Shown: in pieces, positions 290 to 63,985 of the stretch | How positions within the stretch are numbered: the stretch's first letter is position 1 | Layout of the letters: each line of letters opens with the position of its first letter | Origin: Octopus sinensis | Lineage: Eukaryota | Assembly: GCF_006345805.1 (NCBI RefSeq) | Contig: NC_042998.1 | Span: 113,584,001 to 113,648,000 of the forward strand | DNA length: 64,000 bases | Direction: 5' to 3' | Made by a program: the position numbers and the translations under genes | Notes under the pieces: generated by a model | Told to the model about the DNA's origin: nothing | The model's input: the letters and a program-made list of their open reading frames with translations, nothing else | Database searches by the model: none

Positions 290-455
290 AGGCGCAGGAG
301 TGGCTGTGTGGTAAGTAGCTTGCTAACCAACCACATGGTTGCGGGTTCAGTCCCACTGCGTGGCATCTTGGGCAAGTGTCTTCTGCTATAGCCCCGGGCC
401 GACCAATGCCTTGTGAGTGGATTTGGTAGACGGAAACTGAAAGAAGCCTGTTGTA

Positions 456-498
<43 letters not shown>

Positions 499-702
499 TT
501 GTCCCCCTAGCATTGCTTGACAACCGATGCTGGTGTGTCTACGTCCCCGCCACTTAGCGGTTCGGCAAAAGAGACCGATAGAATAAGTACTGGGCTTACA
601 AAGAATAAGTTCCGGGGTCGATTTGATCGACTAAAGGCGGTGCTCCAGCATGGCCGCAGTCAAATGACTGAAACAAGTAAAAGAGTAAAGAGTAAAGAGT
701 AA
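290..702 (+). mobile_element. tRNA-derived SINE family B, full length, with internal (TA)/(TG) microsatellite
   Basis: Has an A-box-like TGGCTGTGTGG, a B-box-like GGTTCAGTCCC, the body GGATTTGGTAGACGGAAACTGAAAGAAGCC and a tail of (AAAGAGT)n. It recurs many times in the window. Confidence 0.85.
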
Positions 703-8936: not shown

Positions 8937-10725
8937 CAAAGGTATCTACTGCCTTAATTGCTGCTATAGGGAGACTCACAAAGACATGGAAACTATTCTT
9001 ACCCTTACGACCGAGAACAGAATAATTGTTACTAATAGTATAGGCATTACAAAGGGAATATTCCAGGGAAATAGTCTTTCTGTACTTCTTTTCAGTTTGG
9101 CACTGAATCCATTATCGTTCCTACTGCAGAAAATAAATAGTTACATGCTAGGATCTTCAACTGCCGGAAATATCAATGTAAACCGTAATTTCTTTGTAGA
9201 CTTATGCTAAAATTGTTAACAATGCCATAAAACAAATGGAATTAATAACAACATTTTCAGCTGATATAGGCATGGAATTTGGGCAAAATAAATGTTCGTA
9301 TTTGGTTATAGAACGATGAAAGTCAGTCCCCTAAACCCAAAACCTGTGCATCTCCCCCATTCCATACAAAGAATGTTACAATTACCTAGGCATAGACTAA
9401 AATGCATCATATGGAGGCACTGTGAATATCGGTAGACTGACCCGAGAATATTACACCAGACTTAGGAAAAAGTCGAAAGTCTCCTCTTACAACAAAACGA
9501 TATCCCACAATGCATTTGCAGTACCAGTGCTGATCCCAACATTTGGGATACTTGATTGGTCTGTAGAGGAAATCCATTCCATAGATATCAGAACCCACAA
9601 AATCCTAACAACAACTGGGAACTTCCACAGAAACAGTGATGTTGACCGGCTCTACCTAAGAAGAAATGAAAGTGGTAGAAGCCTGAGATCAGTGCAGACG
9701 GCCTTCGAATGCCGTATGGTATCACTCAGGTAGCACCTGCTAAACAACAGCAGCAAAAATAAATATATTAATGCAGTCCTGAAAAGTGAAGTAACCAGCA
9801 TTGAACGAGTTGGCAGTAAACTTCTCAAGAAACACTCTCTTCCTGATGATCTCCTATACAGCCCCAAAACAGCTGGGCTCTCTTACTTCAGAGAAGACCT
9901 GGATGGAAAGCACTCAGCATACAAAAAAAAAAAAAAGATCATGCATGGGTATGTTGTCCGGAATTTTGAAGAAGACAGTAGAATTGGCACGAAGCGCAAC
10001 CTCTCTTGGATACAAGATCACTACATCACATCACACTTTGAAGGCTATGCGTTTGCAATCCAGAAACAGGAGATTGCCACAAAGTACCAGGTGAACAATA
10101 GAGACAGTGACGCTCTTGTAATCTCAAGGTGCAACCGCAAATGTAGGATATGTCATATTTCTGTGGAAGACGTTAAGCATGTGATTAGCAGCTGTCATAA
10201 AATGTCGTCACTGTACTACCCCGCTATGCGGCACGATGCTGTAACTAAAACAATTTACAATGCCATCCGCAAAAAAAAAAAAAAGACTGTCCTGAAATAA
10301 ACTTAGAAAATCCCTCTGTTATTGAATACATTCGTAAACACCAGCTCAAGGAATACTGGTGGAATATTCTCATCAAAACTTCTGTCAAATGTTAGCATAA
10401 CAGGCCGGATATTGTTGTTTGGGATAGAGGAGCAAAGGTATGTACCATCATAGAGTTTAGCTGCCCTGCAGATATAAATATCTCTTTGAAAATCAAAGAA
10501 AAAGAGGATATCTATGGGTAACTGCTTCGAAACCCCCAGCTTCTACATCCAGACTATGAATTCATAATAATCGGAGTACTAGGTTTTGTCAGTAAATGCT
10601 TAAAGGAGAATCTGGATAAACTTGGATTTTCAGAAAGAGAAATTGACCGGCTGATTCTTACATTACAAGTCCAATTTGTGAATGGAACAGTAAATATGCA
10701 AGACTTTTCTCAAATTCCAGCTATG
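8937..10725 (+). mobile_element. R4/Dong-clade non-LTR retrotransposon, 5'-truncated pseudogene (RT + CCHC + RLE)
   Basis: RT motifs GIFQGNSLSVLLF, GMEFGQNKC, NAFAVPVL and FHRNSDVDRLYLRR..GRSL; zinc knuckle CRIC..HVISSC; RHD; RLE motif HNRPDIVVWD..IIEFSCP. It begins immediately after a (TACA)n array. Confidence 0.9.
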
Positions 10726-32600: not shown

Positions 32601-33196
32601 GTCAGTCTTTTCTCCCTCCTCACCTCCAGTTAACATGCTGTCCACTGATTGTCATCACTGCGTAAGAAGCCACTCCCTCCTTTCCATTCTAACACATCCT
32701 CCTACCTCGTCTCAATTACAGATTGCACACGTTATCCCCCGCTCACATAGACATACACACACAAACTCGCATATATACACACATATACATACACACACAC
32801 TTACTCTCACACAAACACACACGCATTAATAGTGCGCATGCACTTACATCCTACACTTACCGATGAGTTCTCATAAGCAAACACACCCACATACATAAAA
32901 TATTTCCCCTAAGCAGTGAATACTATGTGTTACTGAAAGGCCTAGTTTTTTGTACCAAAAAACCTTCCCAAAGAGTTTAAGTAATTTACTACGAAACTAT
33001 GGGCTCTTGAAAAATCTCTTGCATAGGCGTAGGAGTGACTGTGTTGGGAAGTAGCTGGCTTACGAACGACATAGTTCCGGGTTCAGTCACACTGCGTGAC
33101 ACCTTGGGGAAGTGTTTTCTACTATAGACTCGGGCCGACCAAAGCCTTGTGAGTGGATTTGGTAGACGGAAACTGAAAGAAGCCGTCGTATATATG

Positions 33197-33230
<34 letters not shown>

Positions 33231-33356
33231 ATATATAATATAATATATATATATATATATATAAATGTAAAAATTTTGAATTCGCCTTAAATGGTCCTTT
33301 TACATACTGAACACTTGGTGAAATTGATTAATTAATTAATTTACCCTCAATTGTTG

Positions 33357-33388
<32 letters not shown>

Positions 33389-33490
33389 GTATATATATAT
33401 ATAATAATAATAAATATTAGGGAATAAATCCAAATTTACAGGGAAAAATCAGATTTAGGATTAAATCCAATTTTATAGTAAAATATTATA

Positions 33491-33761
33491 TAATATTAAT
33501 TCGAGACAAAACCACTATTTTGCAAAACAAACAAGGAAAGACTTAATCAATACATAAATTTTTTTTAATATAAAGAAATAAACCGCCACTACAATCGTTT
33601 CATGTCTTCAATGACATTCGTCAGGTGGATTTTCTGACGAATGTCATTGAAGACATGAAACGATTGTAGTGGCGTTTATTCTTTATATTAAAAAAAATTT
33701 TTATGTATTAATCTTTCCTTGTTTGTTTTGCAAAATAGTGGTTTGTCTCGAATTAATATTA
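33491..33761. repeat. ~130-bp-arm inverted repeat (inverted Penelope pLTR) with 9-nt spacer
   Basis: 33491-33624 is the reverse complement of 33634-33761 apart from a few small indels; the spacer is GTGGATTTT. Confidence 0.92.
33586..33628 (-). ncRNA. Complete minimal type-I hammerhead ribozyme
   Basis: Minus strand reads CCAC-CTGACGA-ATGTC-ATTGAA-GACAT-GAAAC-GATT-GTA^GTGG: 4-bp stem I, 5-bp stem II, intact core. Confidence 0.85.
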
Positions 33762-33858: not shown

Positions 33859-33893
<35 letters not shown>

Positions 33894-34146
33894 TATGTGT
33901 ATGTGTGTGTATATGTTTGTGTGTCTGTGTTTGTCCCCCAACATCGCTTGACAACCGATGCTGGTGTGTTTACGTCCCCGTAACTTAGCGGTTCGGCAAA
34001 ACAGACCGATAGAATAAGTACTAGGCTTACAAAGAATAAGTCCTGGGTCGATTTGTTCGACTAAAGTTGGTGCTCTAGCATGGTCACAGTCAAATGACTG
34101 AAACAAGTAAAAGAGTAAAAAAAAAAAAGAGAGAGAAAGAGAGAGA

Positions 34147-34613: not shown

Positions 34614-34731
34614 TGTATGTATGTATGTATGTATGTATGTATGTATGTATGTATGTATGCATGCATGTGTGTATGTATGTATGTATGTATGTATGTATGT
34701 ATGTATGCATGTGTGTATGTATGTGTGTGTT

Positions 34732-34928
34732 CTTTTATTCTTTTATTCTTTTACTCGTTGTAGTCATTTGAGTGCGGCCATGCTGGAGCACCGCATTTAG
34801 TCGAGCAAATCGGCCCTAGGACTTATTCTTTGTAAGCTTAGTATTTATTCTATCGGTCTGTTTTGCCGAACCGCTAAGTTACGGCGACGTAAACACACCA
34901 GTATCGGTTGTCAAGCGATGTTGGGGCA

Positions 34929-34971
<43 letters not shown>

Positions 34972-35145
34972 CACACACACACACACACACACACACAGAT
35001 ACACGACGAGGTTCCTTCAGTTTTCGTCTGCCAAATCCACGCACAAGGCTATAGTAGAAGACACTTGCCCACGGTGCCACGCAGTGGAACTGAACTCGGA
35101 ATCACGTGGTTGTTTAGCAAGCTACTTACCTACACAGTCACTCCT
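34732..35145 (-). mobile_element. SINE family B with internal (CA)n
   Basis: Reverse complement of 290-702. Confidence 0.85.
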
Positions 35146-35184
35146 ATATATATATATATATATACACACGCACACACACACACA

Positions 35185-38403: not shown

Positions 38404-38436
38404 CATTATTATCATTAATATTACTATTATTATTAC

Positions 38437-38473
<37 letters not shown>

Positions 38474-38562
38474 GTTGTTGTTGTTGTTGTTGTTATTGTT
38501 TTATTATTATTATTATTATTGTTGTTGTTGTTGTTATTATTATTATTATTATTATTATAATT

Positions 38563-38593
<31 letters not shown>

Positions 38594-39202
38594 GTGTTAG
38601 TGAAACCGTATGTCATATTACCAGTCAATGTACGACACTAGTCCAGAAGGAATATAAGAGACGCCACGACAATATAGTAAGGATTGTCTGTTGGACACTT
38701 TGCAACAAGAATGGACTTGACAGAGCAAAAAATTGGTACGACCACAAACCCGAAGGCATTATCGAAAATGATAATGCAAAGATCCCATGGGATTTTATGA
38801 TTCAGTGCGACCATGAGACAGAGAATAGGAAGTCAGACATAGTCCTAATTGAGAAAGAAAGCAAACTATGCTGGATCATAGATATAGCATGCCCAGCTGA
38901 CAACAAGATATGCGATAAGGAAGAAAGTTAGCTTGGGAGGTTAAGCAGTTGTGGTCGATGAAAAAGGTGGCAGTAGTACCAATAACTGTTGGAGCCCTGG
39001 GAATAGTGAGTAAAAATCTTGAGAAGTACATGGAACAAATAGGGGCTGCAATAAGGGTGGAGCACTTGCAGAAAGCAGCACTGCTTGGAACCGCTCGAAT
39101 ACTCTAGAAGGTGCTCGGAAAATAAGAGGTGTTACCTTAGTTCACTGGTAGTGAATAGCTGATACCGTAGTACTTCTCCAGAGTTAGAAGCTGTGCAAAG
39201 GC
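38594..39202 (+). mobile_element. R4/Dong 3' end (CCHC + RLE + 3' UTR) inside (AAT)n
   Basis: ETVCHITSQC..EYKRRHD, WDFMIQCDH..NRKSDIVLIEK..IIDIACPAD and LQKAALLGTARIL; (AAT)n on both sides. Confidence 0.9.
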
Positions 39203-62474: not shown

Positions 62475-62673
62475 ATGTATGTTATATATATATGTATGCA
62501 TATATATATATGTATATATATATGCATATATATATATATATGTGCGTTTATATAAGTATATATATATGTATATATATATACTTACACACACACACACATA
62601 TATATATATTTATGTATTTATATATCATGTAATGTAGACTACAAAAATACGAGCTACTGATAGTTTCATGTAT

Positions 62674-62766
62674 TGGAGATTCAAATTTAGGCAGGATTTT
62701 ATAACACAGCGTGTGTCTCTGAGCAAAATTGCAAGTTGTGTTAGAAACCTGCCTAATCTTGCGTCT

Positions 62767-62769
<3 letters not shown>
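62674..62769. mobile_element. Tiny hairpin/MITE-like element
   Basis: TGGAGA..TTAGGCAGG..TAACACA / TGTGTTA..CCTGCCTAA..TCTCCA inverted arms in TA-rich flanks. Confidence 0.6.
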
Positions 62770-62809
<40 letters not shown>

Positions 62810-62828
62810 CACACATTTTGTGGAAACT

Positions 62829-63985
62829 TTTAAATTTATACTTCAGAACAATTATTTCTTATTTGGTGATATCTACTATCGCCAAAAAATCCGGAATTGC
62901 GATGGGAACGAAAGCAGCCTCTGTTCTTGCGAACCTAACAATGGAATATTTTGAATTTACCATATATGAAGCATCACTGCAAAAATATGGATATCCATTT
63001 CACCATTGTATAAGAGAGAACTGGAAAACATACTTGGATCACTGCTTTATCATTTGGACGGAGATCAATGATAAACTTTTGGAATATAAATAAATAACAA
63101 ATAATATAAACCCTAATGCTCAATTTACACTGGAATATAGATAAAAAAAGTCATCAACCAAATTATGACTGACATTTATCATAAACCAACGAAATCGAAG
63201 TAATATCTCCTGTTTAGCTTATGCCACCCGAAACATTTTAAAAGAAATATCCCCTTTTCATTTAGCAAAAAGGATTTGCAGAATAGTGTCTAATAGAAAT
63301 ACTCGGGGCCTTCGTCTTCAAGGCCTCAGAACAACACTAACTGAAAGACAATATCTACCCTCACTTATAGACGATGGAATTGAGCGTGCTAAGAAATTAG
63401 ACATTAAAACCTCATCTCAAATACTCATCTCAAACACCTCATCTCAAAACACTACTGTATATATCAATTCACAACCCTAGGAACATTGAGGCATACAACA
63501 TTATTGTACAAAATCTATCAATGCTCACTAGAGATCCAAAAATGAACAACATTCCGAAAACATATAGAGTCATCAAATGCAAAAAGCAACACAAATCGCC
63601 GAAAAGACTTCTAACAAATGCAAATCCTTACACAACAACTACGAAACCAACGGTTAAAATTGTGGACTCCCGAACTGTGGAACATGCTCCAACCTACTAG
63701 AAGGCTCGGAATTCCTGTTTAAACAAAGAAAAAGGTTCACAATTAAAACCAACTTCATTTGTGCTTCCGAGAATCTAATTTATGTTATAACTTGCTCAGG
63801 TTGTGGACATAACTATATTGGACAGACAAGTATGACACATAGACGGAGAACCACACTACATAAGGAGCTGATTCGGTTCCCACACTACAGCCAGATTATT
63901 TTGAGTGAACACATAGAGAGATGTGCGGGTAAAATCCAACCAAACTTCACAGTTTCCTCATCTACCAGTGCAATGAAATTTTCTG
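62829..63985 (+). mobile_element. Penelope-like element pseudogene, copy 2 (RT + GIY-YIG)
   Basis: GIAMGTKAASVLANL, WKTYLDHCFIIW, CGLPNCGTC and NLIYVITCSGCGHNYIGQT; colinear with copy 1. Confidence 0.92.

What the first reader, a model, noticed from the sequence alone, without database searches (positions are those of the whole stretch)
33491..33761. Fold-back with back-to-back hammerhead ribozyme cores, nested in a SINE
Seen: a ~130-bp-arm palindrome whose centre carries a complete hammerhead on the minus strand (CCAC-CUGACGA-AUGUC/GACAU-GAAAC-GAUU-GUA^GUGG). A second core on the plus strand starts exactly at CUGACGA (33634) and lacks the CCAC stem-I strand. The whole unit sits in the (TA)n slot of a SINE. 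Established: Penelope-like elements carry minimal hammerheads in their pLTRs and often form inverted pLTRs. Inference: the inversion point at the ribozyme core records a template switch during integration. Transcripts through the locus would form long dsRNA that masks the ribozyme and could be an ADAR or siRNA substrate.
Basis: partly seen in the sequence, partly recalled or inferred. Interest (0 to 1): 0.75.

Follow-up and report, generated by a model that had tools for sequence, protein, structure and literature searches.

The report
Back-to-back Penelope ends with hammerheads
This hairpin is the front end of a very abundant Penelope-type jumping gene inserted twice, back to back, into a TA repeat, a known layout; its many sister copies are mostly intron-less and some stop at the predicted ribozyme cut, which likely records splicing and self-cutting of the element's RNA in living cells.

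Summary
The palindrome and both hammerhead cores are in the assembly as described, but the unit is larger: the minus arm carries an extra ~85-nt tail (to 33403). It is one insertion of a young Hydra-clade Penelope-like element (286 exact core matches; 4,376 for the wider family). 120 of 125 inverted copies pair one tailed with one tailless arm, a known Penelope layout. The junction at the ribozyme core is not a family rule: 3 of 137 arm ends fall there, 94 at the transcript start. Two likely primings on one sense RNA, then end joining, fit better than a template switch: the tailless arm reaches further 5' in 43 of 110 pairs. Family-level extras: most short copies are exactly spliced (183 spliced versus 33 unspliced junction matches), against a published antisense-template idea; both arms of a pair tend to stop together just 3' of the predicted cut, and 7 of 10 junctions found next to it end within 2 nt of it, likely in vivo cleavage. 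No cleavage, expression or bridging read was shown. This scan noted the same layout, spliced copies and cut footprints before on other DNA.

The parts
33025..33200 (+). 5' half of the host SINE (tRNA-like head, ends in the TA slot)
   Evidence: aligns to the uninterrupted copy at window 290-466; family name not tested
33264..33358 (+). tail-only piece of a second, unrelated hammerhead-bearing, (TA)n-targeted family with ~565-bp tandem units
   Evidence: 44 matches among 40 scored of 1048 candidates, 97-99% identity; unit, hammerhead and short/long ends seen in L190-L196
33403..33490 (-). ~85-nt 'tail' (3' extension) of the minus arm, ending in (TTA)n and joined to (TA)n
   Evidence: loose TA ends at 33404 and 33487 in three or four other runs
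33491..33634 (-). tailed arm: element positions -45 to about +105 relative to the predicted cut
   Evidence: stops 3 nt short of the splice acceptor (-48), so spliced or unspliced template cannot be told for this copy
33586..33628 (-). complete minimal type I hammerhead motif; predicted cut between 33590 and 33589; near-palindromic helix III loop
33634..33634 (.). head-to-head junction, one shared base
33634..33672 (+). hammerhead core without the 5' strand of stem I
33634..33761 (+). tailless arm: element positions -35 to about +105, joined to (TA)n
33886..34129 (+). 3' half of the host SINE
   Evidence: aligns to window 454-700

Best explanation
The unit is one insertion of the 5' end (pLTR) of a Hydra-clade Penelope-like retrotransposon, present as a tailed and a tailless copy joined head to head inside a (TA)n tract, and it was likely made by two priming events on one sense RNA followed by end joining. 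Shown: the parent elements in the same genome read initiator, 27-nt exon, GT-AG intron of about 1.1-1.2 kb, hammerhead, tail, then a reading frame for reverse transcriptase plus C-terminal GIY-YIG nuclease. Inferred steps: the nuclease cuts both strands of a (TA)n tract; each 3' end primes reverse transcription, one at the far end of the tail and one about 85 nt upstream at a UAUA stretch; both cDNAs run towards the RNA 5' end; their ends are trimmed and joined through 1-5 nt of microhomology. Here the joint fell at -45/-35 by chance, and the template was uncut, since both arms read through the cut site. The copy has no promoter or reading frame and is likely inert; a read-through transcript is predicted to fold into the long hairpin, not the ribozyme.
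For: Parent structure and reading frame; one 859-aa open frame among 150 scored matches (not fetched). Layout: 120 of 125 inverted pairs from 183 loci have one tailed and one tailless arm; 318 of 324 arm 3' ends are followed by (TA)4 within 45 nt. Both ends occur alone (14 tailed, 19 tailless single arms as called by the script), so each is a start site. The tailless arm reaches further 5' in 43 of 110 pairs, by more than 20 nt in 18, and in 5 the tailed arm is only the tail and stops at +102..+106 where the other arm begins. Arms share the subfamily marker in 38 of 38 pairs chosen without regard to it, 31% expected at random. Sense, spliced template in the family: 183 exact matches to the spliced junction against 33 to the unspliced acceptor; three different donor sites each have matching spliced short copies. 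Two reverse-transcription start sites bounding the tail, cleavage of both strands of AT-rich DNA and a predicted dimer are reported in vitro for another Penelope element (PMC11167929, parts 1-2 of 4 read).
Against: No experiment. One RNA copied twice cannot be told from two RNAs of one source. In this copy the tailed arm is the longer one, which a fold-back would also give; so are 48 of 110 pairs, and 19 are equal. Uneven deletion of hairpin centres after insertion could mimic a longer tailless arm. Shared markers could also come from subfamilies active at different times or from conversion between arms. Arm ends come from local alignments in AT-rich sequence and are uncertain by a few bases. 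Five of 125 pairs are tailed-tailed or tailless-tailless. Pfam and PDB gave no significant match for the parent protein; the domain calls rest on motifs and on three unnamed homologues at 36% identity.
Confidence: 0.68

Rival explanations
1. Two RNA molecules from the same source element (for example held together by the dimeric hammerhead or a dimeric protein) are each primed by one target strand and the cDNAs are joined.
For: The helix III loop is palindromic or nearly so and two copies co-fold into the dimeric hammerhead. Arms overlap over most of their length, which one RNA can give only with strand displacement. A dimer would cut both RNAs together, which also fits paired stops. Earlier AI notes report mixed-family pairs in another genome (not checked by me).
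Against: No mixed pair among 38. Five tailed arms stop where the tailless arm starts, as expected for a collision on one RNA.
Confidence: 0.14
2. One cDNA folds back or switches template and copies itself, giving the inverted arm (the first reader's template switch; self-priming on an antisense RNA was proposed in PMC3846280).
For: Arms are near identical and share markers; junctions show short microhomology; in this copy the tailless arm lies within the tailed arm.
Against: A copy of the tailed cDNA cannot reach further 5' than it, yet 43 of 110 do. Tailless arms occur alone. An antisense template would keep the intron, yet most short copies are exactly spliced and begin at the sense initiator.
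Confidence: 0.1
3. The ribozyme core itself sets the inversion point (a stall or switch at the CUGA core).
For: Three arms begin at -37, -35 and -34 (L031, this copy, L055).
Against: 3 of 137 in the set chosen for an intact core, 0 of 81 in the first body-selected set; 3 of 167 body-selected arms end anywhere inside the ribozyme (-39..+3).
Confidence: 0.05
4. The palindrome is a read fold-back or assembly artefact.
For: The plus arm carries several 1-nt deletions typical of poor consensus; no listed contig of four runs bridged the junction.
Against: The mirror stops after 130 bp and continues into the other half of the SINE; the plus arm ends at the family's tailless end; 125 loci share the layout with different junctions; one contig of another run shows an opposite-strand joint of a sister copy.
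Confidence: 0.03

Closest known systems
Inverted pLTR plus one-sided tail of endonuclease-bearing Penelope-like elements (PMC3846280, 12 passages seen; PMC8557442, passages and section 11 seen)
   Same: Head-to-head 5'-truncated copy, tail on one end only, initiator-like TCACT, microhomology joints, microsatellite targets.
   Different: Tail about 85 nt instead of 30-40; most insertions are pLTR-only stubs without reading frame; most short copies have lost the intron, whereas intron retention is the described rule.
Hydra clade of C-terminal EN+ Penelope-like elements, including Hydra-1_Obim of Octopus bimaculoides (PMC8557442 section 11 and supplement rows seen)
   Same: DKT, CxCX5C linker, CxxC and CxH around E/N, no CCHH, (TA)n targets, canonical hammerhead.
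   Different: Hammerhead sequence differs from the Hydra-1_oBim row, so a different family; RWK reads KWK; no tree was built with named members.
Minimal, dimer-type hammerheads of metazoan Penelope-like elements (PMC4209133, parts 1-2 of 4 read)
   Same: Short helix I, palindromic helix III, intron end next to helix I, pairs on opposite strands 100-700 bp apart already noted there.
   Different: Closing pair of helix II is A-U or U-A, not G-C; cores here are only 9 nt apart.
Poseidon element of the green anole in vitro (PMC11167929, parts 1-2 of 4 read)
   Same: Two internal reverse-transcription starts bounding the tail; AT-rich target cut on both strands.
   Different: That work found no RNA reads ending at the hammerhead cut and cleavage was not needed for insertion; here a minority of genomic copies end at the predicted cut.
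Twin priming of LINE-1 (recalled, no call)
   Same: Both target strands prime one RNA and the cDNAs are joined by microhomology.
   Different: LINE-1 arms cover different parts of the RNA; here they mostly cover the same part, and the second start site is fixed.

Membership tests
Hydra-clade PLE | single frame, RT followed by C-terminal GIY-YIG, under 3 kb | tested here: met
   YRDD and VVY..YIG..R..H in P0001; frame starts 50-60 nt after the tail; 859-aa open frame listed, not fetched
Hydra-clade PLE | DKG changed to DKT | tested here: met
   SDKTRN in P0002, aligned with DKT of three homologues
Hydra-clade PLE | CxCX5C linker before the nuclease | tested here: met
   CTCRDKSKC in P0001
Hydra-clade PLE | CCHH absent; CxxC and CxH flank the conserved E and N | tested here: met
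   one Cys between VVY and YIG; CYLC..E and N..CRH
Hydra-clade PLE | N-terminal RWK motif | tested here: inconclusive
   RIKWKA in P0002; homologues read RMRWRA / MRWRA
Hydra-clade PLE | insertion into (TA)n | tested here: met
   318 of 324 arm ends
Hydra-clade PLE | placement in the Hydra clade of an RT tree | not tested
EN+ PLE insertion | inverted 5'-truncated copy with tail at one end | tested here: met
   120 of 125 pairs
EN+ PLE insertion | 5'-UTR intron in the pLTR next to the start site | tested here: met
   GT-AG intron after a 23-28-nt exon in parents
EN+ PLE insertion | target-site duplication | tested here: inconclusive
   cannot be read inside (TA)n
type I hammerhead (minimal, dimer type) | CUGANGA, GAAA, NUH core with helices I-III | tested here: met
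   minus strand complete, plus strand lacks helix I; core kept across 32 variant rows, which the search pattern required
type I hammerhead (minimal, dimer type) | covariation in helix II | tested here: inconclusive
   closing pair A-U in one subfamily, U-A in another, but U-U in a third group
type I hammerhead (minimal, dimer type) | palindromic helix III allowing a dimer | tested here: met
   ACGAUUGU or ACAAUUGU; co-fold gives the dimer, -21.8 kcal/mol
type I hammerhead (minimal, dimer type) | G10.1-C11.1 pair | tested here: not met
   A-U here
type I hammerhead (minimal, dimer type) | self-cleavage | not testable with these tools
   only indirect genomic footprint
non-LTR retrozyme | head-to-tail tandem units, each with a full hammerhead | tested here: not met
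   copies are dispersed inverted pairs or singles; only whole inverted units are duplicated (L048, L049, L137)
microRNA precursor | Rfam gathering score | tested here: not met
   best hairpin match 49.6 bits against 100
octopus tRNA-derived SINE (OK/OR names recalled) | match to a named consensus | not tested
   ARAGORN found no tRNA gene; A/B-box-like head seen by eye only

The most novel reading that the evidence does not exclude
The stubs of this family are a genomic record of the Penelope cycle: sense, spliced RNA is primed twice at the two ends of the tail, and a second class of insertions is copied from RNA already cut by its own hammerhead in vivo. That would contradict the antisense self-priming proposal for inverted pLTRs and supply the in vivo cleavage evidence that the papers I read say is missing.
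Probability: 0.45. Interest if true: 0.72.

Novelty: new member of a known kind. Interest (0 to 1): 0.48.

Why it matters
The locus itself is one ordinary stub among thousands. The family matters because how Penelope-like elements make inverted ends, why they seem to keep introns and whether their weak hammerheads cut in vivo are stated as open in PMC3846280, PMC4209133, PMC8557442 and PMC11167929. Thousands of young copies with mappable ends make each question countable, and a likely intact parent frame exists for an in vitro test.

Tried and rejected
Rfam scan: no hammerhead family, only sub-threshold microRNA hairpins. Pfam and PDB: nothing significant for the parent protein or three homologues; the protein atlas gave no answer. 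Sequencing runs: no RNA holder listed on record; contigs of four runs did not bridge the window's junction and cannot show starts, ends or strand, so expression, editing and small RNAs remain untested. Junction fixed at the ribozyme core: rejected. Cap-derived G: among about 20 short copies of this subfamily that start at the initiator A none has the genomic C before it, 13 have G, but only 4 of these G are not explained by the partner arm (read by eye); suggestive only. An intact parent among fetched loci: none (frameshifts or deletions, some perhaps assembly errors). Retrozyme and microRNA readings rejected (see membership). Literature: seven searches returned no paper on this family, on twin priming in Penelope elements, or on genomic copies ending at the hammerhead cut; subscription papers and Repbase were not searched, and bioRxiv supplements were not seen.

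Full report
Observation. The palindrome is in the assembly: arms 33491-33624 and 33634-33761, 93% identical, overlapping by one base. The minus strand holds a full minimal type I hammerhead (33628-33586, predicted cut 33590/33589); the plus core starts at 33634 without the 5' strand of helix I. The full descriptor hits once in the window and in 0 of 100 shuffles. Rfam has no hammerhead match here. The flanks are two halves of a SINE whose uninterrupted copies have a short (TA)n in the middle. The host is likely an octopus (inference; one short homologue match is named from Octopus bimaculoides).

Family. The 39-nt core has 286 exact matches in G000, a 38-nt stretch 3' of it 4,376; the excess is mostly sister subfamilies with a variant ribozyme. 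I analysed 183 loci: set A, 83 loci (all 69 behind the first 100 core matches plus 14; 11 duplicate loci dropped); set B, the first 60 new loci; and a fresh set of 40 (the last 7 loci's list and 33 in order, which selects one subfamily by a 3' variant; three long pairs in that range and three early loci were not fetched). Of 125 inverted pairs, 120 join a tailed to a tailless arm; 318 of 324 arm ends abut (TA)n. Both 3' ends also appear as TA-joined loose ends in contigs of other runs. This layout is described for Penelope-like elements (PMC3846280, PMC8557442 passages), and hammerhead pairs on opposite strands were noted in PMC4209133.

Parent. [quoted passage not shown] DKT, CxCX5C, CxxC/CxH and the lack of CCHH match the Hydra clade as defined in PMC8557442 section 11; RWK reads KWK and no tree was built. 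An octopus Hydra family is listed in that paper's supplement, with a different hammerhead. All fetched frames were broken; one 859-aa open frame is listed among 150 scored matches.

Is the junction at the core special? No. With the cut as 0, 137 mapped arm ends of set A fall: 94 at -75..-63 (transcript start), 16 at -60..-41, 3 at -37..-34 (core start, this copy included), 7 at -30..-4, 0 at -3..+3, 17 further 3'; 11 more run into the intron. In set B none of 81 ends lies at -40..-31. Most joints have 1-5 nt of overlap or a short insert.

How the inversion likely arises. A fold-back copy of the tailed cDNA cannot reach further 5' than it. The tailless arm does so in 43 of 110 pairs (18 by more than 20 nt); the tailed arm is longer in 48 and 19 are equal. 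In 5 pairs the tailed arm is only the tail and stops at +102..+106, where the tailless arm starts. Each end also occurs alone (14 and 19 single arms, script calls not all checked by eye). Two start sites bounding the tail and cutting of both target strands are shown in vitro for another element (PMC11167929). The two arms share the subfamily marker in 38 of 38 unselected pairs, 31% expected. I infer two primings on one RNA, then microhomology joining. Two RNAs of one source, or fold-back followed by uneven loss of the hairpin centre, are not excluded; this copy alone fits all three.

Template. Most short copies carry the exact exon-exon junction: 183 matches against 33 for the unspliced acceptor, and three donor variants in parents (GAG|GT, CTT|GT, AAA|GT) each have matching spliced short copies. 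They begin at or just after the initiator A. So the usual template is the sense, spliced transcript, against the antisense self-priming proposal in PMC3846280. Unspliced copies exist too (20 of 101 arms in set B run into the intron). The window's copy stops 3 nt short of the acceptor, so its own template cannot be classed; it was uncut, because both arms read through the cut site.

Ribozyme activity. The core is kept and helix II closes with A-U or U-A, but with U-U in some subfamilies, and the usual G-C pair is missing. Helix III is a palindrome and two copies co-fold into the dimeric form, as for other Penelope hammerheads, which cut poorly in vitro (PMC4209133). In set B arm ends are bimodal: 54 at or 5' of -40, 36 at +4..+35, 1 inside the ribozyme, 10 further 3'. 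I noted a prediction that both arms stop together and tested it on the fresh set: 15 pairs both upstream, 6 both at +4..+35, 2 mixed, 3 other (p = 3e-4; first set 12, 15, 0 mixed, 9 other). Set A has 5 mixed pairs among 55 (read). Exact-pattern searches found 8 matches (7 independent) with one arm ending 0-2 nt from the cut, three of them exactly at it followed by an untemplated A or AA, against 3 junctions ending further upstream plus one at the helix III palindrome; 7 of 10 in 3 of about 26 positions, p about 2e-5 under a crude uniform null chosen afterwards. Against a pure cleavage reading: none of the 51 sampled arms of this class reaches 0..+5, and of 9 junctions with both arms near the cut, 5 have 1-5 extra bases that may be templated from uncut RNA and 4 sit at the palindrome. 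A stall at the folded ribozyme or at the U-run after it remains a rival. I put cleavage in vivo at about even odds.

dsRNA idea. A transcript through the locus is predicted to form a hairpin of about -175 kcal/mol; forcing helices I and II costs 61 kcal/mol. No transcript was shown, so ADAR or siRNA use is untested. The copy lacks the initiator, the intron and the frame, and is likely inert.

Verdict. A real, ordinary stub of a known kind, from a family not found in my seven paper searches. Its value lies in the family statistics, which bear on three open points of Penelope biology. Earlier AI notes of this scan reached similar readings on other DNA; I saw them after my own tests, except that two of them prompted the arm-marker test. 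Papers: PMC11167929 and PMC4209133, parts 1-2 of 4 read; PMC8557442, passages, section 11 and supplement rows; PMC3846280, PMC2377424 and PMC13282606, passages; bioRxiv 10.64898/2026.07.22.740005, part 1 of 5; others as listings only.

Noticed in passing
window 33264-33358; L190-L196: Tail-only piece of a second young family: ~565-bp tandem and inverted units with their own hammerhead and short/long 3' ends, also in (TA)n. Retrozyme-like or non-autonomous Penelope; parent not sought.
   Followed up: partly
L032:905-1770: Between the two arms lies an inverted copy of about 400 nt of the left flanking DNA, as if target-flank sequence was copied during integration.
   Followed up: no
tailed ends of 147 arms: Variable (TTA)n (0-10 units, mostly 2-3; parents 2-5) at the tailed end, possibly slippage at priming.
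   Followed up: partly
L048, L049, L137, L042: Whole inverted units, or the tail alone, are repeated two or three times in tandem inside one (TA)n; real or assembly repeats not told.
   Followed up: no
L241 and three further places: Perfect palindromes centred on the ACAATTGT loop of helix III.
   Followed up: partly
P0001 residues about 300-390; L109, L113, L126: Asparagine-rich low-complexity stretch between reverse transcriptase and nuclease, as described for rotifer Penelope elements (PMC3846280).
   Followed up: no
L111:7465-9470: Parent copy whose frame runs into its own intron sequence after 500 codons, an internal deletion that removes the nuclease.
   Followed up: no
window 19896 (minus), 22714 and 23345 (plus): Further loose CUGANGA..GAAA motifs; none passes the full descriptor.
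   Followed up: partly
window 33896-34130 and 34731-35146: A second SINE copy in opposite orientation 600-770 nt away forms another long inverted repeat.
   Followed up: no
window 9734-10300, 38419-38931, 62638-63093: Fragments of other retroelement reading frames (judged by eye).
   Followed up: no
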